From Catajapyx aquilonaris (taxonomy: Eukaryota), in the NCBI GenBank assembly GCA_000934665.2, contig JYFJ02003359.1, positions 1 through 43,201 of the forward strand: 43,201 nt of DNA, written 5' to 3'. This document shows, one piece after another, positions 891 through 30,922 of the stretch. How positions within the stretch are numbered: position 1 is the first letter of the stretch; each line of letters opens with the position of its first letter. A model generated the notes under the pieces. It made no database searches and was not told the origin of the DNA. It was given only the letters and a program-made list of their open reading frames with translations. Made by a program: the position numbers and the translations under genes.

Positions 891-3784
891 ACTGATGTTA
901 GTACCGGTGAACAGCTCCGCTATGCAGAAGTCGAGCCTCTGTCACGTCGAGTGGCTAGTGCTCTAGCCAAAAGAGGATTCAAAAACCAAGATACTATGAT
1001 CTATGTGACAACCAAGTGTGCTCGCATCTATGCTGTATTTATGGGTGTTTGGCGTCTCAATGGAATACTGCGCCCATCGTATCCTGAAGACACAGAAGGT
1101 CAGCCTGGTTTTTCATGAAGCCTTTATATTTTTTGACAATCTGTGTTCGTTGACCTATCAGTTGAAGTAACTATTATCGCTATTATCTGTCTTGAATGTT
1201 ACAGAGACGTTGTTGATGAGGCTGAGGGAGTCCGAAGCTCGTTTTATCCTGTGTGATGGCAACACGGCGACCAGCGTTTTGTCGGCTATTTCACACCTGT
1301 CGTGGCCAGTACATGTGTTCAGTTTTGATGGATTCGACAACTGTGGCCATGTTAATGACTTGTTCGACGACGACGGATCAGGTACTACCACTTGTTCACT
1401 TGACACAAAAAAAATGCAGATGCCTAAAATGACTTCTGAGGTCCCACAGCCATGCCGGAAGAGGTGCAAGTAAACGTGGAGGAAGACCTGGTAACCATTC
1501 TGTGCACTGGTGGAACAACAGGCCCATCTAAAGGAGCCGCTCTAACCCACAGCACCTTCGTGTCCTTTGTCAAATACTCCGAGTGGGTGTGAGTATACAC
1601 TGTACAGTGTACAGTCATGGTATAGACATGTTACATACCTCCAAGAGACTTGGTATGAAGCCATCCTTTCTCTATAGGTGGCCCAAAGTAACTAACGACA
1701 AGATGTTCCTTGCCATCAAAGTGTTTCATATGTCCGGTATGGTAGGTACTCCTACTCTTATCCCAAGAGGTGTCCATGTCATGCTCATGTCTGACAACAC
1801 TCCGGAATCATTTCTTCAAGGGATTCATGACTACAAGGTATGGAATCTTCCGGATGATTTAGCATATTATATTCGTGGGTCATTCAGTGTATTCTAAGCC
1901 TATATAGTGTACAGTAAATGGCGTGGACTTACAACAAAATGCTTTTATTAAATTATTGTAGTAGCATTTTTCAAAACTACCTCAAGTGTTGGAAAAGTAA
2001 AGCGTGCCAACCTGATATAGATATACCCTACCACTTTTTGCATGGAATCTAGAAGTTGGAGCACTAATGACAGGCACATTTTGAGTCAAGGAAAATATAT
2101 ATACTGTGCACATGTCACAATAAATTTGTGATCATGAAACATGTCCTTTAGTATCAGGCTCAGAATACATTGACATAATTATTTAAATCCAAGTTACAAA
2201 TCTAATTAGGTTCAGCATGATTTTGGACCGTTTTGATAACTCCATTACGGTAAAAATATCAATACATTATTTGCACTGTACATTTGGCCCTCAATATACA
2301 CTATAGATTATAGTACAGTGTCAGAACCGGTCAGAACAGCACATAAAAGTGTCATATATTGATTAGCTCATTGCTCTCACCCGTTCCAGCCAGGAAACGT
2401 AGGGGGCTTTCCCACTACATTGTTGTGGGCAGTGACCTATCCCAGGGCAAAAGCATTCGACCTCTCTTCAGTGACTACCGTCGTATCTGGTGGTATGCCC
2501 ATTACAGCCAGCATGGTGGACAAACTCTATGAAGCTTACCCCAATGCCAAGGTCGTTCACAGGGTAAGTTTTTCTACAGGACCGTCCGTTTGCATACAGA
2601 AAGTAAATGATGCAACACAGGTTTATCATTGTTATTACGTATAAATCTCGCTTTGAAATTTTTGTCATAAATGGAAGGTCTTTCACCTTCAATGGGACAG
2701 CCAAGCTCCAGAACTTTACCAGTCCATATTATAATATGAACACTCGTATATATATAATAGGTCCGTGCCAAAATCGGGGTGACTAATAATGTCTAGTTGT
2801 AATACCTTGTATTATGCCAATTATGGTAAAGTAAGCAATTCGTAACATTCGGTATTTAAATAAAATCCTCTTTTTTAGATCTACGGTTTGACAGAATTAT
2901 ACTTTGTTTCGTCCACCATTAATATTGAAGCCCAACCGGCACCAAATGAGGAAGTTCCAGAATGGAAAGGCAGGAGAACTTTGCATTCTAAACGGTAAGT
3001 TCCTGACCCAAGTAACAATAGGATCTTATTTTATCAGGTCAGCCAAGAGGAAGCTGCGGCCGTATCTTCCCTAGGATGAAAGCTAAGATTCTGGATCTAA
3101 CAACCGGAGAACCTCTGGGTCCAAATAAGGAAGGAGAACTCTGGGTCTCTACCCCCATACTAATGAAGGGATATTACAAGCAGCCAGATGTAATATTTAC
3201 GTTGTAACAATAGTAAAAAACATAATCATGAACGTCTTCAATTGTTAGGCAACAAAGGATGCGGTACGTGATGGATGGCTAAGAACTGGTGACCTGGCCT
3301 TTATTGACCCAGACGGATACTTATACTGTTTGGGTCGTGTAAAAGAAACCTTCAAGTACTGGAATTACCATGTAAGAACATGAGCATCACACTTGGATCA
3401 CATGTGACTAGGAATTCACTCTTTCAGATATCACCTGTTGAGCTTGAGAACGTGATAATGAAACATCCGGATGTGTTGGAAACCTGCGTGGTCGGCATCC
3501 CAGACCTTGAGGGCGGAGACTCCATTCCGAGAGCGTACGTGATCAAGAAGGGCTACAAATTGACTGAAAACGCCTTGAAAGAATTCGTGCATGGTAAGGT
3601 CAACACAATCCAAAATTTGATGCCACAACTTTGACCATCTTCTGGTTTCAAAGGTCAAGTGGCCCAGTACAAGCAGTTGCGAGGAGGTGTCGCCTTTGTG
3701 GATGATTTGCCTAAAACTGGCGCAGGTAAAGTGTCCAGGAAGGACGTACTGCAAATGTATAAGGCCAGTGTGGTTGAGGACTGA
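891..3784 (+). CDS. Luciferase-like / 4-coumarate-CoA ligase-like acyl-CoA synthetase (ANL adenylate-forming superfamily), multi-exon, 5' exon not located
   Basis: Hand-spliced GT-AG exons 891-1098, 1205-1381, 1450-1582 (or -1588), 1678-1837, 2390-2563, 2879-2994, 3048-3189, 3249-3371, 3428-3593, 3654-3784 give about 509 aa. Motifs: P-loop [71 protein letters not shown]. Stop TGA 3782-3784. The junction at 2994/3048 is uncertain. Confidence 0.93.
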
Positions 3785-3787
3785 TAT

Positions 3788-4822
3788 TCACGAGATTGTA
3801 ATTCTTGCATGGTATCTGGGTACAGTATAAATAACAGCTGGGTTACCGCACTGACTGCCTGCTGCAATACATGATCCTATCCTAACCCGAGGTAGCACAT
3901 GTCTGCAGGTCTCTCGGTATTTCTTGATCCTGAAATGGTACACAACAGGCAACAAGGCCGAATGCACGTAACAGCAACACTCCAGCCAGGTCAGGTTCCA
4001 GCCGACGAAGGTAGTTACAACGTACGGTCCACGACACACCAAGAAAATTCCAAATATCACAATCACAGTGGTCACACTTCGCATCTTGAACCGCATGTCC
4101 ACACCGCGACGTCGTCGGTCCTGACCATCCTGTATGTAATTGCACGACGGACGTGGAAGGACTTGGACTCGGGCTGCATTCAATCGAAGCGCATTGGCGG
4201 TGTAGAGGAAGGCCACCAGGCACACCAGGTCTGGTATGACCAGCATCGAAGCCAGGTCCAAGCCAGCGGATGGCCATCCCAACAGTGGCACACTGGCAAC
4301 CACAATGGCGTAAGTCCACAGAGAGAGGTCAAGCCACTGGGTGGTGGTGACACGGAGGGAATCCCGGCGACGGATGAGGACCAAGTAGCGATCCACAGAG
4401 ATGACGGACAGGACAAAGGCAGAGTGGACTAACAGGGCGGTCAGGAGGAAGTGGGTTATGTTCACGACAGAGGTGTGTGGAACTGGTGAGACGATGAGGA
4501 GGATCAGCTCTAGGGGAAGGCATACCAGGAGAAGCAGGGTCTCACCAAAAGACATGCTGAGAAGCAGGGTGTTTATGGCCGATCGCATGTGGCGCTTGTA
4601 GCAGACCATGTAGCACATCAGCAGGTTGCCTGGAACACCCAGGACGAAGCAGGTGACCAGGAGCAGGGATAGCAATACTTTCTGGTACGGCTCCAAACAG
4701 GTTGTCTCCATCACTAGAAGTGGCCCAACATATGCCTTCATGCAGTGTGAAAGACACAATCTTCTCTCGCATGGCAACCCCATCAGCAAATGCAGATAAT
4801 ATAAGCACACCATTGGATCCAT
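3788..4822 (-). CDS. Intronless class A GPCR of the GPR45/GPR63 (PSP24) family
   Basis: 344-aa ORF with seven hydrophobic segments; GN in TM1, family-typical MRSAIN (ICL1), ISVDRY, LRLNAARV, VDMRFKMR, SALLPVVYHFRIKK, C-terminal PAVIY, matching recalled GPR63/GPR45 motifs MRSAIN / DMxFKTR / SALNPLIYYWRIKK. The true start could be a downstream Met. Confidence 0.88.
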   Translation of the reverse strand: MDPMVCLYYLHLLMGLPCERRLCLSHCMKAYVGPLLVMETTCLEPYQKVLLSLLLVTCFVLGVPGNLLMCYMVCYKRHMRSAINTLLLSMSFGETLLLLVCLPLELILLIVSPVPHTSVVNITHFLLTALLVHSAFVLSVISVDRYLVLIRRRDSLRVTTTQWLDLSLWTYAIVVASVPLLGWPSAGLDLASMLVIPDLVCLVAFLYTANALRLNAARVQVLPRPSCNYIQDGQDRRRRGVDMRFKMRSVTTVIVIFGIFLVCRGPYVVTTFVGWNLTWLECCCYVHSALLPVVYHFRIKKYRETCRHVLPRVRIGSCIAAGSQCGNPAVIYTVPRYHARITIS

Positions 4823-4866
4823 CGATAATCTAATTCAGCTTCTGTGGCGTCAGCTCTTATAAATAT
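4820..4866 (-). promoter_or_regulatory. Candidate core promoter of the GPCR (TATA-like TATTTATAA plus DRE-like TATCGAT)
   Basis: Minus strand reads TATTTATAAG about 35-40 nt upstream of the first ATG, and TATCGAT overlaps that ATG. Motif match only. Confidence 0.3.
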
Positions 4867-7732
4867 GCAGGTCTCTAAGATAACAGGGTACTTGCTGAAC
4901 GACAGATGGAAATGCAGAGAACCGTCACATTTTCAACATGTTGAGTCGTGGGCAAACAGATGGTGAGATCTTGGTCAGGAGCTCCAACAAAGTCACTGGA
5001 AAGCTGGGATGTTCCTATAGTATACGATAGAGGACATCAAGATTATTTAGTCTACAACTGTATCTTCATGTTGGGGTAGGGATATTAACATTTTGCAGTA
5101 AATTTGTCGGACACTCGTTATATACTTTTCTGCTGACAGTCCACAAAATTCTTACCTTTGGTTGTAGTGTTGTTGTCTCGGTTGTTGTGTCACCTGAGCC
5201 TGTCATGGGGCCAACATGTGCAGATTGTACTAAAAGTCTGTCAATATTATTCGATAAGAATTGAACAACACAGATCTAATTTTCCAGTGAATACCGTTTT
5301 ATTGCATGAACCTTGTACATTGAAAGAGAAACTAATCATACAATCATGAATGGATTGATATCAACCTCACTGTTAAATAGTTACCAGATAGAAACTGCAG
5401 CTCGTTTGCAATTCGTTTTTATTCATCTCATTAACATTCTACACATTAATTACCTACCCGACTAAACTTGTGACAATGTTGCTATTTACACGAACCAAAC
5501 TTCTAGTAATATAAATGATTAACGCAAGATGAATGCTTGTTGGTGACTGCCATGTACTTGACAGGTCCATAATTTCTTCATTTGTCTTAAAACTAGCTGT
5601 CACATGACATGTTCCCAAAGCTTTAAAAGCAAATTTGCAGAATTTGTGATAATCTGTCCACCTGGACAGCAATGCAGTAACACAAAAACAGGAAGGCACG
5701 GGGAGTTTACGAAGAAAATACATTAACATATTACCAGTGTATCAAACAATCTTGTAATCAACAAGTTTCAACATTAATAACATAGTTTTCATGTATCATT
5801 TGTATGAGTTGTAACATGTTGGAAAGGGAGGGTGGAGGGAGGGAGGATATGATTGTTTACAACACTTTTCACTAAAGATAAAATCGTGCAACAAGTTATT
5901 ATTACAAATGTTCACATGAAGTGGATTCAATCCTCTTTTCATTTCACCGGAATACTAACCCACAATTTGATTTGTATAAAGCAAATGCATGCAAATGCAC
6001 AGGGGGATCATCACATGTCAATTCCACATGTTGCAAGAGTCAAACCAGGATCATTCTGCACACCAATTGTTTAAAAAATTAAAAGATTAATGTGGTTTTA
6101 TATAGCCCGCGCCACACACCTTCAATGTTTTACCTGTCGTTCTGTCACGTCTTTAAGATTTACAACAATCTGGAGGTTAAAACTGTTCTGAAACACAAGT
6201 GCTGTCAGTTGCATCCTCACCATGAATCAGACCCGGAACCTCCAGCTTGAAGAGGTTCTGCCAACTTGATCTATGACAGCACATAAATGGCACCACCCTA
6301 TATCCAGTCCAGCTGACTTTGCACACTAGCTCACACAATTCCTTATGAGGAACAGACATACCATAACTGTTTACTCCTACATTCCCTTTGGCATATTCTA
6401 CAAGGACATGCTGCAGGCAATACTTTGCATTATAGTGCCATAAGTTACTGCAACACAGCCTTTTTTAGTGCCAGCTTGCTTCAATATACATACACAGGAG
6501 TAACAGGCAAATTTACAAAATCGTACTCTGCACACAATTGATGGAAGAACATACAAGGGCGGCTGAATAGTGGGCATTAGACATTTGTTGGTGTCGGCAC
6601 TATGTTTCCTTGAAATATGGAAACTATGCACAGTTGTACTTTGGAGGCTTTCGTAGTGTCAATATCATACTATTCAACACCAAAGCAGCTGGGTTTAAAT
6701 GCCACTTACAGTGACATTGAAGCAGCATGTGGCTGCATGCCAACAGCACTGCCTTGCTTAGCAAAAAAGCCACATCTGCAATATTCATGTCAAGCATGCT
6801 CTTCTAACTCCACAAAACTTCTGCAGCTGGACTGAACTCCAGCCACTACAATCTAATAGAGTGAAATAAGCAACACTCGACCTTATCGCACACCTTCTTT
6901 GCTAAGCACGGCAGAGCAATCCCAATACACTGAAGGTCATGTCTAGTGGCGCATAACGCATTTCACCAAAAGACCCAAAGCAGTGATTAATATCATTAGC
7001 CACACACTTCTCCAATGGTCACAGCAGAGTAATTAACTGTGTCCTTGTCATCTACCACATTCCCATCTGTCCATACAGCTTGGTAGTGCATTACTGACAC
7101 TTAGATTAAGACTACAATGTCCAAGCTGGTGTTACCTGATAACTGCATGGAAACATAGTGCCGAGAATAAATTTAGACCAAATAATTCCAACCTGTTATA
7201 GAACGTGTTACATATCATGCCCATGAGTGACATCTGATGCATTACGTCACATGTGGTACACAGGAAATAACACATTCCAACACCATGGAATTCTGTTAAA
7301 AAGAAGACAGAGATAGGTAATACCTGGAAAGATTGCATATGATACAAGACACACTAAATGCATGAAAATATACCAAGAGGGCCTGCATAACATTGGCATA
7401 AGTACTAAGGTGGAAAGAAACACACTGCTCCACAACAAGATTTTGGAAAGTGCTCCAGCTTTGACAACCTGACAGTATGTCTACTGTTTACTAATTTGAG
7501 TTGATCATAAAACAATACTAGAGCAGCATGTAGTGTGCCAGTGCTCATTGGTCGCTCTTCAGCGAACTCCTTGAGCCCACAAACCACTTTAAAAGGCAGC
7601 ATACGAGAAACAAATATTAGTGTAATGAAAAGAAAGTCCCTCTTCAAAACTTGAAGTGGTGCAGGTGCACACATTTTTTAAAAATGCCAAGAGTGTTCAA
7701 CATTTCAATAAAAGTCTCTTATACTTTTCAAA

Positions 7733-25247: not shown

Positions 25248-28200
25248 GTTATTATGTAAAACCACCCCTTGAGTGGAATTTACACTTAAATTCATTTCTC
25301 ACTGACCACACACAACTATCCACGTGTGTGGGCACATTCAATCCTCCCAATCGCTAACATATTGCTAATCTTCACTCAAGCAGGACTTTAATATCCAACA
25401 CAGGCAAGATTGACATCCTCTCTGTACACACAAGACTGCAGCAGCGGCCTTTACCATACCTTCATCGTGGTGCATGCAACTGGTTTCTTCAGACCTCCAA
25501 CTTCACTAGATCAAGTCACCTTCACTTGTCAAATATTTTAACCCATCTTTGCAAGTCTGCATCAGGGTATGTTTTATGGACAGAAATATGTGCCTTTCTA
25601 TTTTCCTGACTACAGGTTCATTGAATACCACTTCTATGTATTTGTAACAGACATGTTAAAGAGAATGAAGGTGACACTAATTATTTGCAGTCTGATTTGC
25701 AATGCTACAACACAGCTAAAAAAAAGCTAGGGGGAGGCATAACCTCTGGAACAGAGATGTCAACTAACCTGGGCTGACTGTAAGGCCAATGTCTTGACCC
25801 GTGGGATCAGTTCTTCTTGGAACTTTGATGGCCACAGCACCTGAGTCACCAATCCACACTGCAGTGCCTCACTTGCAGTCAAGGTTTTGCACCCATACAG
25901 CAAATCACTGGTCTGCAATGAAGATGCCATTATAACATTTAATCCAAACTATAGCAAGCACTCACCATTTTGCCTCCAACAAGCTGTGGAAAGGTGAGAG
26001 TCGCAGCACCTTCTGGCACCTGCCCTAACTTGGCATATGGTGTATAGAAGGTGGCCTTATCACTTGCATAAACTATGTCAAAGAAAGGAAGCATTGTCAC
26101 TCCCAGTCCAATGGCAGCCCCATTGACAGCTGCCACCATCAGTTTGGGAAACCGGGCCAATGACTTCGTAAATTCCCTGAAAATGTATCAGATTACCACA
26201 AGTCCTACCCCACATTATCGTTCTCACGTACTTAACAGCATGGGCAAGCTCCTCTGCAGTCTTCTTGCGTTTGTCTGGCACTGGATTCAGCACGCTGTAC
26301 ACATCCAATCCTTGGCAAAACACATTTCCAGTGCTTGACACAAGCACAACTCTGACACTTTCGTCTCGCTTTAATGACTGCATCACTTCTGTAAACTCCT
26401 TCAGAACCTTTAAAAATAAAGAAGAGCAACTTAGGATTTGCATCGTATGCTTCACCGACATAGTCTCACCTGAATATTTAATCCATTGCGCAGTTTGGTT
26501 GACAATGGTGTCATGATAACTTGTGCTACATTGTCATACTTCCGTACCTGGATCTCTCTAAAATGAATGTAACTCTCACTCTGTCGCAAACTTGACCTCT
26601 GCTTAGTGCCATCTTTTGCGTCACCATCTTTTGCTTTACCATTTACACTTTCATTATCCAGGTACTTCAGAAACACATTGCAATCTGGTAGAAAATAAAT
26701 ATTATTATTATCATATTTTATTCCACAATGTAGTTTCATGATCCTAATAAATACATACCATCATCATCCTCCTCAGGAAGAACAATATCTTCCTTTCTGC
26801 AGCCATTACTTGACCCCATTGGTGAAACATCTGATCCTCTTGAACTTCGGCTAGCTGCAGTCAATGCTTGTGATTCCTTCTTCTTCTTCACACTTTTCTG
26901 ATCTGGGTCTATCGTCAGCAGTCCTTGATATTTCGATTTGCCCTTCTTTGGCATCGTAGCCAGTAAGGAGTGTGATCTGGATGATTTCACTGGTTTTTTC
27001 TTTGTATCTTTGGTAGGGGCTGAGGCAGGGGCATCAGCTGCAATTCCATTCTCAGTTACACCAGCTTCTTCGTCCTCAGCTGCACCCTCTTTAAACCTTT
27101 TTGACATGGCTACCTTGATCTTCATCTTCATAGTGTCATTAAGTTTCTTTGTACTGGGAGCACTTTTGGATATTTTTGCCACTTTCCCTGCCTCCATCTT
27201 CCCTATCTTCTTCTTGCCTTTGGCATCAGTCTTCTTAGGGAGTTTAGTGTCTCCAGGTTGCACCTTAAGTTTAGCAATCTTTCGCCTGGGGACCTTTTCA
27301 TCAACTCCTTTAGCAGTGCTTGGCCTCGAGGCTTCTTTATTAACTCCCTGTGAGCTTGGCCCTGCCTGGAACATCTCATCCCCAGGCGGCCTTTTCTGAC
27401 CCTGCCGGCGAAAAGTCACCACAGGGCTGGTGCTGCGGCTGGAATATGAGCTACTTGAAGAGTGGCGACGGATAATTCTTGACGCATCAGCTGGCAATGT
27501 TGAGGTCTGTCGGGGGCTCCCAGGATAATCCAAGGCACTCCCAGTGCTGGAATCACTGGGCCGACGCAAGGATGAGGATGTCTTCACTGTCTTCCTAGGG
27601 GGAAGTTGTTTGGGCGGACTCAAATTACTTGATTTGCGGCTACGAGTAGCTACTGATTCTAGAGGAGAACCTGTAGTAGAGGTAAGTCTCAAGATTGCAT
27701 TCTTTACAATCTTTTCTTTCACTTTTAAAATTTGTTTCCCACGCCCAAGAGCTCGACGAGACCGTTTGGCAGCAGGAGCTTCCTTCTGGCTGTTTATGTC
27801 TTCCTGCTCTGCTTCATATATCATGTTCACGGCACCTTCATCCATCAGAAGGCGGTCAAGTTCATTTCTTTTCCTTTTCTTCCCAACAGACGCTGTTGCA
27901 TCAGCCGGCATTGGCACAGCAGATGTACTTTGTCGACTTGGTGATGGCGAGTCTTTCCTCAACCTCTTAGACTTGGTCTCTTCAACTGTTTGATTTCCTG
28001 ATTCTTCTGTGGCAGAACCCACTGATGCATTTGATGCTTTGTTTGCTCCCTTTGCAGGCTCTTCAGTCAATCCAGAAAAATCAGTTTCAGCAAGCATTCC
28101 CTCTACTTCAGCACCTACTGACAGTTGATCCAAAAATACCACACCATCAAGAACGGATTTGTTTGGTGCAGGAGTTTCATTTGTTGTATCCGTTGTAGCA

Positions 28201-29393
28201 GCTGTATCGGTTGTAGCAGTTACATCAGTTGTATTGGTTGTTACATTAGTAAGTTGCTCTGGGACATCATCTACAGGGCGTTCCTCAAATAGCAACTTCA
28301 ACTCCTCCTCAATGGCATCTCCATTTATCTGTGATTCATCCTCCCCTGATGGTTGGGGCCCTTCCTGTGCCTGTCCTTGTCCAAGTGACTGAAGTTGCCC
28401 TTGAGGTAGTACCTGGGGCTGCTGGGGTTGCAATGGTTTTACTTGTGCATGGGACTGTGACTCCTCTTGAGATGGTGCACCAGGCAATAGAAAATGTTCC
28501 TCGTCTCCAGATTCACTCTTTACTGGTGAAGTTTTTTCTGACTGCTTGGCAGGGATGTTGCTTGGAGATATTTTGCGAGTCCTCTTTCCAATCCTGTCTT
28601 TCTTCGGTTTGTTTTCCAAAGGCAGTTCCCTCAGCTGTTTCAGTGCAAGTGCTTTCGCTTCCTCTGGATCCAGCCTGCCAAACACATCAGCTTGAAGCTG
28701 TGGCTTGACAGACTGGGGTGCTGTCAACGCAGTTGCTAGGGCCCCTAACGTTGCCTGTTGGTTGGTATTATTTACCTCCTCCTGTGCATCTGGAATGAAG
28801 AAACTAGAATCTGTCACTTCAGGAGCAGATTCCTCTTTCTGCACAATTCCAATTCCCCCAGCAGCAATGCGATTGCTCAGCTGTTGTGACAATTTGGTTG
28901 TGAAAGCTTCCTGTGTTTCATATGGAGAAGACACCTGAGGTGAAGCAATTGGCTTGTTCTTCTGAGAACGTTGAAACAGTTCATGCGCAATTTCTTCGTG
29001 GGTGACTATCTGGCTCGTAAGATTCCGATATGGAATGCGTACACCAAGACGGGGTTTTTGAGGACGTCGACCCATCCGGATTAAATCTTCTGAGGGATCT
29101 TCAACATTGCGTCCCATTAGGTGTGGGGGGATCTGAAACATGGGTGTGTCCTTTCCACTCCTTTCATCGTCATTCTCTCCTTCCCCTGACAATGTACTAG
29201 CTCCAGAGGCACATGTCTCCATCGTAGCATATTCTCTTGCTGCATCAGCCCTGGCAAGAGCTTCAGCAGTGGAAGCTTTTCCTTCAGGTGTTCCTGACAC
29301 TGCCACAATTTCATAAATAAATTTTCCAACTCGCTTTTTTGATAAAAGTGTCTCCCCAGGGTTATCCGGAGCCGCAGGTGGTGAGGATGCCAT
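15695..29393 (-). CDS. HIPP1: CDYL-related crotonase-fold chromatin protein lacking a chromodomain (HIPP1-like)
   Basis: Exons 29393-26759, 26684-26470, 26407-26232, 26176-25966, 25912-25769, 15877-15695 splice in phase (3564 nt, 1187 aa). C-terminal enoyl-CoA hydratase/CDY-type domain: FCQGLD, VAAVNGAAIGLG, DIVYASDKATFYTPY, GQVPEG, LTASEALQCGLV, TKALLR. About 880-aa low-complexity N-terminus with an in-frame TAA just upstream of the ATG. Gene symbol inferred from architecture. Confidence 0.85.
17499..18080. repeat. Diverged inverted repeat pair (about 17499-17645 vs 17932-18080)
   Basis: Reverse complement of the right arm aligns by eye with the left arm (e.g. AATAAATGT..AAAAATTAC.GAAAT.ACTC, GCAATGGAG.TGGAATACTT). 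Confidence 0.7.
18491..18790 (+). mobile_element. Degenerate tRNA-headed SINE sharing a 3' module with family B
   Basis: A-box-like TAGTCTAGTGG; 3' CCCCTCCC..CCTGCAGACCCAGGCGCTTCATTGAAG resembles family B CCCCTCC..GGGCCCGGGTGCTTCATTAAAG; interrupted by C/A runs and an N. Confidence 0.45.
18804..19588. repeat. 392-bp tandem duplication split by an N (probable haplotype/assembly artefact)
   Basis: 18804-19195 and 19197-19588 are near-identical (two substitutions seen), joined exactly at the N at 19196. Confidence 0.85.
19750..21620 (-). pseudogene. Decayed non-LTR retrotransposon (LINE) reverse transcriptase fragment
   Basis: Frameshifted peptides in RT-like order: EVRIAM...DPGIDKLP (cf. KAPGPDG), LLHVIS..NSFICR (cf. 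VISxxQxxFxxGR), MKVWGYNSYLFTMI (cf. LxxFGFxxxFI). Heavily degraded; boundaries approximate. Confidence 0.45.
22190..22540 (+). mobile_element. tRNA-derived SINE family C, copy 2
   Basis: High similarity to 13474-13821; degenerate TSD TATCACATTGGA (22178-22189) / TATCACACTAGA (22542-22553). Confidence 0.88.
23132..23926. mobile_element. PIF/Harbinger non-autonomous element (internal deletion derivative)
   Basis: Perfect 23-bp TIR AGGCCCATTCACACAGGCCGTCG, TSD TAA (23129-23131, 23927-23929); internal MADF-like peptide start (FIDEGERCSLLYE...EYR) on +. Confidence 0.9.
24077..24480. mobile_element. Tc1/mariner-type MITE
   Basis: TIR CAGGGTGTTTCAG plus extended subterminal inverted repeat (GAGGGGGTGGGGAAAAATCGTAGGTGGCGACAACCCC); TA TSD at 24075-24076 and 24481-24482. 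Confidence 0.9.
24934..25251 (+). mobile_element. tRNA-derived SINE family A (V-domain-like), copy 2
   Basis: Similar to 7733-8050; perfect 15-bp TSD TTATGTAAAACCACC at 24919-24933 and 25252-25266; (ATT)n tail. Confidence 0.9.
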
Positions 29394-30353: not shown

Positions 30354-30922
30354 TGAGGGTTGTTCAATAACTTTTGCCTCCTGGTCTGTAACTTACTTAT
30401 TAATTGATGACCATGAAAGATGTCACATTCAAAATAAAGTTTGAAATGCCCACTTTCCGAGGAGCAATTTATTTTTCGACATAGTCCCCACCGACGGCGA
30501 TGCACGTCCGCCATCGACGCACTAGTCGACGCATGCCGTCAGAGAAGAATGAGGCTGGCCGTTTACGACACCAACAACGCACTGCATTGGCGACCTCTTC
30601 GTCGGACACAAAACGCTTGCTCTTCAGATGTTCTTTCATCTTCGGGAATAGCCAGAAGTGACAGAGGGCTAGGTCTGGACTGTAGGGTGGGTGAGACGAA
30701 ACATCGCGGAACTGCATCGTCTCCAAGGCGGCGGTTGTGTCCCGACTTTTGTGAGGTCGAGCGTTGTCATGTTGATTGAAAGCATTTCCCCCCGGACGAA
30801 CTCTACGGAGACGTGCACGCAAGTGCTTCAGTGTCTGCATGTAGCGTGCTGAGTTGACACTTGTGCCACGCGTAGAGTTCGTCCGGGGGAAAATTCCGTC
30901 ATTCAACATGACAACGCTCGAC
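30354..30922 (-). mobile_element. 5'-truncated mariner (DD34D-type) element with transposase C-terminal half
   Basis: HDNARPH, HPPYSPDLA, FWLF..MKEHL, GGDYVEK; 3' TIR TGAGGGTTGTTCAATAAC next to TA at 30352-30353; coding similarity ends near 30870. Confidence 0.92.

What the first reader, a model, noticed from the sequence alone, without database searches (positions are those of the whole stretch)
3947..4465. A 'lidless' GPR45/63-family receptor: extracellular face eroded, intracellular face conserved
Seen: counting from R145 (3.50), position 3.25 is Val120, not the near-universal Cys. P4.60 (P179) and P5.50 (P197) are only 18 residues apart, leaving essentially no ECL2 and no ECL2 Cys. P6.50 to P7.50 is only 26 residues (very short ECL3), and the ECL1 WxFG motif is gone. 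Activation switches are altered: D2.50>E, CWxP>CRGP, NPxxY>LPVVY. Yet the ORF is intact and keeps MRSAIN, DRY, DMRFK and RIKK. Known: the TM3-ECL2 disulfide is a class A hallmark, and vertebrate GPR45/63 are orphans that retain it. Inference: coordinated loss of both disulfide partners and both loops suggests a ligand-independent or membrane-accessed receptor, or a G-protein scaffold, rather than random decay.
Basis: partly seen in the sequence, partly recalled or inferred. Interest (0 to 1): 0.7.

Follow-up and report, generated by a model that had tools for sequence, protein, structure and literature searches.

The report
Lid-less arthropod GPR45/63 orphan receptor
An arthropod copy of an orphan cell-surface receptor (GPR45/GPR63 family) has lost the loop and disulfide bond that cap such receptors, yet the gene still looks intact and membrane-ready, so it could show whether this family needs its lid; nothing yet shows that it is expressed or signals.

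Summary
The ORF at 3788-4822 (-) is the only GPR45/GPR63-family gene found in this genome (probably a hexapod). It has Val at 3.25, no ECL2 cysteine, 18 residues from 4.60 to 5.50 (43 relatives: 36-46) and 26 from 6.50 to 7.50 (40 measurable relatives: 31-39). Re-assembled contigs of the same sample show no difference. The gene looks maintained: open frame on a branch of about 2.3-2.6 changes per site, host-like codon use, seven hydrophobic helices, strict positive-inside topology.

The interpretation needs trimming. Substitutions are no more skewed to the outer face than in relatives (z -0.56), and the inner face is eroded too (37 of 53 conserved columns kept). The CWxP change is an arthropod trait. 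Arthropod-specific residues of the outer half (E2.61, R6.48, W7.37) are kept, which fits an open-pocket receptor better than a ligand-free scaffold. Lid-less class A receptors are known (melanocortin, MrgD) and bind ligands. Expression, dN/dS and hexapod orthologues could not be tested, so a recently dying gene is not excluded. The scan had not noted this on other DNA. New variant of a known kind; interest 0.4.

The parts
3788..4822 (-). Longest ORF, 344 aa, GPR45/GPR63-family class A GPCR, no intron in the coding stretch
   Evidence: Pfam 7tm_1 64.1 bits over cut-off 30.5; top phmmer hits named GPR45, GPR63 or 'high-affinity lysophosphatidic acid receptor'
4712..4822 (-). Codons 1-37: probably untranslated (leader or intron); the likely start is M38
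   Evidence: synonymous codon score -0.67, like non-coding DNA, against +0.27 for codons 38-312; block pLDDT 46-55; a pyrimidine run and AG end at 4714, two bases before M38. Inference, no RNA
4709..4711 (-). M38, likely start; gives a 7-residue outer N-terminus with no N-glycosylation sequon
   Evidence: 40 of 43 relatives have an N-terminal sequon, the query has none; there is no Asn before N66 even from M1
4571..4588 (-). MRSAIN family motif (ICL1/TM2), kept
4541..4543 (-). E94 at 2.50 (relatives D 31, N 8, H 4 of 43)
4508..4510 (-). E105 at 2.61: acidic residue at the outer end of TM2, specific to the arthropod clade, kept
   Evidence: D/E in 12 of 12 arthropod-clade rows, 1 of 31 others
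4463..4483 (-). ECL1 and top of TM3: ECL1 Trp replaced (V114), Cys 3.25 replaced (V120), one residue shorter than the median
4385..4393 (-). DRY motif, kept
4232..4288 (-). P4.60 to P5.50 in 18 residues: about 23 residues missing, with the ECL2 Cys and the conserved aromatic at 5.38; modelled as a 4-residue turn (182-185)
4085..4099 (-). DMRFK family motif at the inner end of TM6, kept; the Arg is an arthropod-clade state
4025..4036 (-). CRGP: Arg at 6.48, shared with decapods
   Evidence: R in 6 of 6 decapod rows of A4, basic in 11 of 12 arthropod-clade rows
3947..4027 (-). P6.50 to P7.50 in 26 residues: about 10 missing; ECL3 modelled as 4 residues; keeps W7.37 and Y7.43; ends in L7.49-P
3887..3931 (-). 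RIKK motif and helix 8, kept
3791..3886 (-). C-terminal tail: keeps the family's Pro and Tyr (P328, Y332), lacks the double Arg before them; A+T-rich codons; last 20 codons lie antisense to the neighbour's 3' untranslated end
   Evidence: GC3 0.28; spliced contig of run X5 reaches 3850
3428..3784 (+). Last two exons of a convergent acyl-CoA ligase (AMP-binding enzyme); its stop (3782-3784) is 3 bases from the receptor's stop (3790-3788)
   Evidence: Pfam AMP-binding_C 41.2 bits; stop by translation; 60-base GT-AG joint in X5

Best explanation
This is the genome's single GPR45/GPR63 orthologue, fast-evolving but still kept as a membrane protein. It has shed the whole disulfide-tethered lid (ECL1 Trp, Cys 3.25, ECL2 with its Cys, the outer turn of TM5) and most of ECL3 through at least three frame-preserving losses, leaving four-residue turns between seven helices. 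It most likely works as an open, shallow-pocket receptor in the manner of melanocortin receptors or MrgD: a ligand reaches the retained polar residues (E2.61, R6.48, Y7.43) directly from outside or from the membrane edge, and DRY, the TM6 basic patch and helix 8 still engage a G protein, probably with a non-canonical switch and some tonic activity. Shown: sequence, losses, family, single copy as far as searched, coding-like composition. Predicted: seven-helix fold. Inferred: expression, ligand binding, coupling.
For: Open frame despite a branch of 2.33-2.57 changes per site, where a neutral copy would be disabled after a median 0.004-0.023 substitutions per site. Cys to Val (GTG) and Trp to Val (GTT) each need at least two base changes (codons), so the frame stayed open long after the lid residues went. 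Codons 38-312 use host-like synonymous codons: 0.27 bits per codon, null -0.54 +/- 0.08, eight paralogous receptor exons 0.09-0.68; GC3 0.68 against flanks 0.40-0.42. All seven helices fall within the family's hydrophobicity range; 24 Lys/Arg in the four inner segments, 0 in the four outer ones. AlphaFold2 with 32 rows: seven helices plus helix 8, mean pLDDT 80.5; Z 28.4 to class A receptors. Of 7 columns diagnostic for the arthropod clade the query keeps the class at 4, three of them in the outer half (E105, R264, W279). No second family copy in three searches of the genome. A scorpion orthologue on an equally long branch (2.42) keeps the lid, so speed alone does not remove it.
Against: No dN/dS and no close relative (best hits about 30-37% identical). 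The open frame and codon use cannot exclude loss of function within the last few hundredths of a substitution per site. The inner face is eroded as well (37 of 53), E2.50 and L7.49 occur in no relative, and TM2, TM4 and TM5 each carry one more charged residue than any relative. Other arthropod pocket states are lost (T/S2.64, aromatic 5.38, ECL2 His; His 3.28 is shifted or lost). The model leans on the family alignment; without it pLDDT is 44.9. No N-terminal sequon and no disulfide could impair folding and export. The family has no confirmed ligand (PMC13494238), so the pocket reading is inference.
Confidence: 0.45

Rival explanations
1. A gene in late decline: constraint has been weakening for a long time in this lineage, deletions accumulated where they were tolerated, and the gene may have lost function recently without yet picking up a stop.
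For: Among the longest branches in the family; inner face eroded like the fastest relatives; extra charges in three helices; no named insect orthologue among the names returned, which fits a family being lost in hexapods, though those look-ups covered only 30 representatives and one regional search; mouse Gpr63 is dispensable for survival (PMC6881074).
Against: At least three separate length changes all keep the frame; new loops are short Gly/Pro/Ser turns with no basic residue; tail motif and stop position kept; under neutrality 99% of copies are disabled by 0.03-0.16 substitutions per site.
Confidence: 0.25
2. A ligand-free G-protein scaffold or carrier: the outer face no longer senses anything and the protein is kept to hold or traffic a G protein, as mouse GPR45 carries G-alpha-s into cilia.
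For: GPR45 enhances ciliary transport of G-alpha-s (PMC13270161, review passage) and is reported to couple constitutively (PMC13494238); every outer segment is minimal, N-terminus included; DRY, TM6 basic patch and helix 8 are kept; the 2.50/7.49 pair is altered.
Against: Outer-half polar residues specific to arthropods are kept; no excess outer erosion by substitution; the tail's double Arg is lost, and a tail Arg matters for ciliary entry of mouse GPR63 (PMC6881074; I could not map R407 onto the alignment); lid-less receptors with ligands exist.
Confidence: 0.22
3. The short-loop form is simply what this family looks like across a hexapod lineage that the databases barely sample, so it is old and not special to this genome. 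This is compatible with the best explanation and would strengthen it.
For: Multi-step codon changes at lid residues imply age; no hexapod-labelled orthologue was found to compare.
Against: All 12 arthropod-clade rows, two of them unnamed and placed by tree alone, have full loops; no short-loop cluster surfaced among 1.84 billion representatives.
Confidence: 0.35
4. Assembly error or wrong gene model: the loops were collapsed in assembly or lie in missed exons.
For: The N-terminus of the ORF is probably mis-called; the contigs that confirm the sequence come from one sample.
Against: Three separately assembled contig sets match without gaps; the frame runs through both junctions with normal codon use, leaving no intron into which an exon could fit; the point changes at 3.25 and ECL1 fit the deletions; mouse Gpr45 has one coding exon (PMC12205348).
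Confidence: 0.03

Closest known systems
Decapod GPR45/GPR63-like receptors (Panulirus XP_071526766, Penaeus, Macrobrachium, Homarus, Palaemon; P0010, P0190-P0194)
   Same: 26-28% identity in alignment A4; share Arg 6.48, acid 2.61, Trp 7.37, Tyr 7.43, mostly Phe 5.58, and the tail Pro...Tyr motif
   Different: They keep Cys 3.25, ECL1 Trp, an ECL2 with Cys (46 residues 4.60-5.50), 36 residues 6.50-7.50, Asp 2.50 and NPxxY
Vertebrate GPR45 and GPR63 (PSP24 family, annotated 'high-affinity lysophosphatidic acid receptor')
   Same: Same family by sequence, motifs and tree; single coding exon (PMC12205348 for mouse Gpr45); orphans, with lipid ligands proposed and not replicated (PMC13494238)
   Different: Fish members keep the disulfide pair, Trp 6.48 (most) and NPxxY; ciliary localisation and G-alpha-s transport are shown in mouse only (PMC13270161, PMC6881074)
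Melanocortin receptors (MC1R-MC5R)
   Same: Works-like precedent: no Cys 3.25 and an ECL2 of about three residues (PMC3172247)
   Different: Another family; they have a long Cys/Pro-rich ECL3 with its own disulfide and known peptide ligands; the query's ECL3 is shortened as well
MrgD / MRGPR family
   Same: Lacks Cys 3.25 and the ECL2 Cys, short ECL2, no Trp 6.48, shallow solvent-exposed pocket, high basal activity (PMC9287403)
   Different: Has a replacement TM4-TM5 disulfide needed for surface expression; the query has no Cys between 4.60 and 5.50
GPR88
   Same: Orphan class A receptor without loop cysteines or Trp 6.48 that still couples to Gi (PMC9061749); first feature-based hit in the ESM Atlas at 0.96, tied with unrelated receptors
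   Different: Another family; keeps a disordered ECL2 and lacks Pro 5.50, which the query keeps

Membership tests
Class A (rhodopsin-like) GPCR | Pfam 7tm_1 above the curated cut-off | tested here: met
   64.1 bits against 30.5
Class A (rhodopsin-like) GPCR | Seven membrane helices plus helix 8, N-terminus outside | tested here: met
   Predicted, not solved: model pLDDT 80.5, Z 28.4, hydrophobicity and positive-inside
Class A (rhodopsin-like) GPCR | Anchor residues N1.50, R3.50, W4.50, P5.50, P6.50, P7.50, Y7.53 | tested here: met
   All seven present; 2.50 is Glu
Class A (rhodopsin-like) GPCR | TM3-ECL2 disulfide (a hallmark of about 90% of members per PMC3172247 and PMC9287403, not a condition of membership) | tested here: not met
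   V120 at 3.25, no Cys between 4.60 and 5.50
Class A (rhodopsin-like) GPCR | Couples to a G protein or arrestin | not testable with these tools
   Needs a cell assay; a predicted complex would pass by likeness to solved structures
GPR45/GPR63 (PSP24) family | Closest relatives by sequence are family members | tested here: met
   Top phmmer hits (E to 3.6e-27); of the ten best looked up, 5 clusters carry a family name and none another receptor's name; 204 bits on a family profile built without the query
GPR45/GPR63 (PSP24) family | Family motifs MRSAIN, D-x-x-FK-x-R, RIKK, tail Pro...Tyr | tested here: met
   the double Arg of the tail is lost
GPR45/GPR63 (PSP24) family | Placement inside the family tree | tested here: met
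   Inside the 47-row family group (SH-aLRT 97) and an 8-row arthropod group (92); on the arthropod side of a branch with 89. Quick trees, long branch
GPR45/GPR63 (PSP24) family | Full-length ECL2 with Cys, paired with Cys 3.25 (near-universal in the family; 3 of 43 members also lack Cys 3.25, so treated as conserved, not defining) | tested here: not met
GPR45/GPR63 (PSP24) family | Ciliary localisation and G-alpha-s transport as in mouse | not testable with these tools
   PMC13270161, PMC6881074
Melanocortin / MRGPR lid-less receptors | No Cys 3.25 and very short ECL2 (works-like feature) | tested here: met
   against PMC3172247, PMC9287403
Melanocortin / MRGPR lid-less receptors | Descent from these families | tested here: inconclusive
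   No such sequence was put in a tree; the protein groups with GPR45/63, so the likeness is taken as convergent
Pseudogene | Stop codon or frameshift | tested here: not met
Pseudogene | Composition decayed towards non-coding DNA | tested here: not met
   (slow to decay, so blind to recent loss)
Pseudogene | dN/dS near 1; no transcript | not testable with these tools
   No close relative; no run on record as RNA

The most novel reading that the evidence does not exclude
A minimal class A receptor: about 275 core residues with N-terminus, ECL2 and ECL3 all cut to turns, kept by selection across a hexapod lineage purely for a ligand-independent job on its inner face (holding or trafficking a G protein). 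It would be a natural experiment showing that the GPR45/63 family's conserved role needs no extracellular ligand.
Probability: 0.2. Interest if true: 0.72.

Novelty: new variant of a known kind. Interest (0 to 1): 0.4.

Why it matters
GPR45 controls food intake in mice and has no accepted ligand; it is reported to carry G-alpha-s into cilia (PMC13270161) and to couple constitutively (PMC13494238). Whether the family needs an extracellular ligand is open. A natural orthologue without the lid gives a direct design: test this protein, and mouse GPR45 with the matching loop removed, for surface delivery, basal coupling and G-protein transport. It also points to two charged positions (2.61, 6.48) shared by arthropod members as candidate ligand contacts. 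If the gene proves to be dying, it is only a snapshot of how a receptor erodes before loss.

Tried and rejected
Word-based homologue searches: none at E <= 0.001 among 8000 candidates for the query; 11 mostly unrelated receptors for alignment A2; five more decapods and five fish-like rows for the decapod region. Metagenome scans: 0 of 96 stretches for the query alone; 20 loci of 191 stretches for alignment A3, none with short loops or the acidic 2.61. No run is on record as RNA; run X5 holds a spliced contig of the neighbour and none on the receptor beyond 3850; this blank is not used as evidence. Single-sequence fold was uninformative (pLDDT 44.9). Fold and sequence searches of the PDB list peptide and amine receptors generally and no GPR45/63 entry or melanocortin receptor among the rows shown; no inference drawn. 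ESM Atlas gave generic class A clusters for the query and GPR45 for the decapod protein. A possible intact paralogue at G000:C300 (63 bits with P0027) lacks the family motifs and reads like an amine receptor (label from recall): rejected. Antisense and shifted ORFs over the gene (3899-4432 +, 3882-4277 -) were taken as shadows of codon bias: all five other frames hold stops over the span and score lower. The claim of excess outer-face substitution was tested and rejected (P0017, P0019, P0028 dropped as truncated or gapped models). In one search the L006 row was read in a wrong frame and ignored, and L003 and L011 are one locus. No Pfam match in 102 of 105 frames between 5031 and 26533 other than enoyl-CoA hydratase exons in 2 of them and one empty overlap. 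No complex prediction was run. The primary GPR45 paper (PMC12704111) is not held; its result is cited through a review. Literature searches for GPR45/GPR63 in invertebrates, insects or crustaceans found no description of an arthropod or lid-less member; the library lacks most subscription papers and no supplements were read.

Full report
What is there. The finding lies in an ORF at 3788-4822 on the minus strand, 344 codons without a stop, that scores 64.1 bits on Pfam 7tm_1 (cut-off 30.5). Contigs of three DNA runs cover 3300-5300 in one piece with no other letters or gaps. They come from one sample that may be the window's source, so they argue against an assembly slip but add no second individual.

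Family and lineage. A phmmer search of 1.84 billion representatives gave 41 hits at E <= 1e-10, none at 1e-30; the best are about 30-37% identical. Of the ten best looked up, five clusters are named GPR45, GPR63 or 'high-affinity lysophosphatidic acid receptor', two are named only hypothetical or unnamed, three have no name. A quick tree puts the protein inside the family (SH-aLRT 97) and in an eight-row group with spider, scorpion and decapod members (92), on a branch of 2.33 against a median of 0.95; a second tree gives 2.57, with the scorpion member at 2.42. Three searches of the genome found no second family copy; the one hit that outscored it for one query lacks the family motifs. These searches score only the best candidates, and the assembly may be incomplete. 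The genome holds an odorant-binding-protein exon and a gustatory receptor; such binding proteins are reported only in hexapods, with OBP-like exceptions in a spider (PMC5850775, passages), so it is probably a hexapod. No hexapod-labelled orthologue turned up in any search.

How unusual the losses are. In 43 relatives the 4.60-5.50 span is 36-46 (median 41) and, in the 40 that reach TM7, the 6.50-7.50 span is 31-39 (median 36); Cys 3.25 is present in 39 by count, 40 by column; all 43 have a Cys in the ECL2 interval, one displaced; 36 have the ECL1 Trp. Twenty further loci (18 distinct proteins) gave 37-45 in the 17 measurable. So about 23 and 10 residues are missing and no relative comes close. 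Loss of Cys 3.25 alone is not unique: P0034, P0037 and P0102 lack it with normal loops.

What is ordinary. Trp 6.48 is present in 20 of 43 relatives and in none of 12 arthropod-clade rows; six decapods have the same Arg. Position 2.50 varies (D 31, N 8, H 4), 7.49 varies in 7 of 40, and Phe 5.58 is common (15 of 43). Only E2.50 and L7.49 are unique. The inner-outer asymmetry is a family property: 53 conserved inner columns against about 9 outer. Scored against a leave-one-out profile, the query's outer half is what its inner half predicts (z -0.56), and it keeps 37 of 53 inner columns, like the fastest arthropod members (33-35 of 54-55) and below the 44-51 of most others (three truncated or gapped rows dropped). 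What is special is the loss of one physical module: ECL1 Trp, both cysteines, the loop and the aromatic at 5.38. That these residues pack together is textbook class A knowledge, recalled.

Alive or dying. For alive: simulated neutral mutation disables the core after a median 0.004-0.023 substitutions per site, 99% by 0.03-0.16, a tiny part of the branch; the codons at 3.25 (GTG) and at the ECL1 Trp (GTT) are at least two changes from Cys and Trp, so the frame outlived the lid. Codons 38-312 have GC3 0.68 (flanks 0.40-0.42; paralogous receptor exons 0.61-0.85) and a synonymous score of 0.27 bits against a null of -0.54 +/- 0.08, within the 0.09-0.68 of eight paralogous exons. All seven helices fall in the family's hydrophobicity range and the four inner segments hold 24 Lys/Arg, the four outer none. 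AlphaFold2 with the family alignment gives seven helices with four-residue turns at 182-185 and 274-277, mean pLDDT 80.5, matching class A structures at Z up to 28.4. Against: the model leans on the alignment (44.9 without); TM2, TM4 and TM5 each carry one more charge than any relative and TM4 is near the low end; none of these tests sees a loss of function in the last few hundredths of a substitution per site; dN/dS and expression could not be tested.

Start and tail. Codons 1-37 score as non-coding (-0.67), model poorly and end at a possible splice acceptor two bases before M38, so the protein probably starts at M38 with a seven-residue outer end and no glycosylation sequon (40 of 43 relatives have one). 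An upstream coding exon cannot be excluded. The tail keeps the family's Pro and Tyr and ends where decapod tails end but has lost the double Arg. Its codons are A+T-rich; its stop lies three bases from the stop of a convergent acyl-CoA ligase, whose spliced contig in run X5 reaches 3850, which may explain the composition.

How it most likely works. Of seven columns that mark the arthropod clade, the query keeps four, three in the outer half of the bundle: E105 (2.61; acidic in 12 of 12 clade rows, 1 of 31 others), R264 (6.48) and W279 (7.37); Tyr 7.43 is kept too. It has lost or shifted His 3.28 and lost T/S2.64 and the ECL2 His. Two of the twelve clade rows are unnamed and placed by tree alone. 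Buried charges kept over such a branch suggest a pocket still in use, or an internal network that holds the bundle. My best reading (0.45) is an open, shallow-pocket receptor with intact G-protein-facing motifs. Precedents: melanocortin receptors lack Cys 3.25 and have a three-residue ECL2 (PMC3172247, passages); MrgD lacks both cysteines and the toggle Trp, binds beta-alanine in a shallow pocket and has high basal activity (PMC9287403, passages); GPR88 lacks loop cysteines and Trp 6.48 and couples to Gi (PMC9061749, passages). Loss of ECL2 does not itself imply activity without ligand: in GPR21 the loop is the built-in agonist and its deletion stops G-protein complex formation (PMC9839698, passages). 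The scaffold reading (0.22) rests on mouse GPR45, which enhances ciliary transport of G-alpha-s (PMC13270161, review passages; the primary paper was not held) and is reported to couple constitutively, while lipid ligands for GPR63 were not replicated (PMC13494238, passages). Late decline gets 0.25, artefact 0.03. Separately, there is a fair chance (0.35) that the short form is shared across an unsampled hexapod lineage.

Novelty. Six searches of the held papers found no account of an arthropod or lid-less GPR45/63 (listings only); the library lacks most subscription papers and no supplements were read. The scan's own notes hold no look-alike sequence and no mention of GPR45 or GPR63; notes on other receptor arrays in this genome describe variable pockets with fixed inner faces (not checked here), a reminder that this pattern is common. 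Verdict: a real, sharply defined variant of a known family, with an architecture known from other class A families, in one genome and without functional data. New variant of a known kind; interest 0.4.

Noticed in passing
window 3782-3790: The stop codons of the receptor (-) and of a convergent acyl-CoA ligase (+) are three bases apart, so each gene's 3' untranslated end must run antisense over the other's coding end; a spliced contig of the ligase reaches 3850.
   Followed up: partly
window 5156-5300 (-): A 74-base stretch (5229-5156) between a good splice acceptor and donor may be an upstream exon of the receptor; a contig of run X5 ends at 5260, about 40 bases below a minus-strand AATAAA, which suggests another transcript's 3' end only about 440 bases upstream of the ORF.
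   Followed up: no
window 25942-29393 (-): An 885-residue low-complexity exon followed by enoyl-CoA hydratase-like exons, the layout of a chromodomain-Y-like gene (label from recall).
   Followed up: no
window 30469-30909 (-): Transposase fragment, weak DDE_3 match below the cut-off; reads like a mariner element (label from recall).
   Followed up: no
proteins P0034, P0037, P0102 and locus L029: Other GPR45/63-family members that lack Cys 3.25 but keep a full ECL2 with cysteine, so the disulfide has been lost more than once in this family.
   Followed up: partly
alignment A4, positions 2.61 and 6.48: Arthropod-clade members share an acidic 2.61 (12 of 12) and a basic 6.48 (11 of 12) that other animals' members lack: a possible change of ligand chemistry at the base of the clade.
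   Followed up: partly
L013:351-677 (-) and L014:1-1642 (+): An odorant-binding-protein exon and a gustatory-receptor gene elsewhere in the genome, used only to place the lineage.
   Followed up: partly
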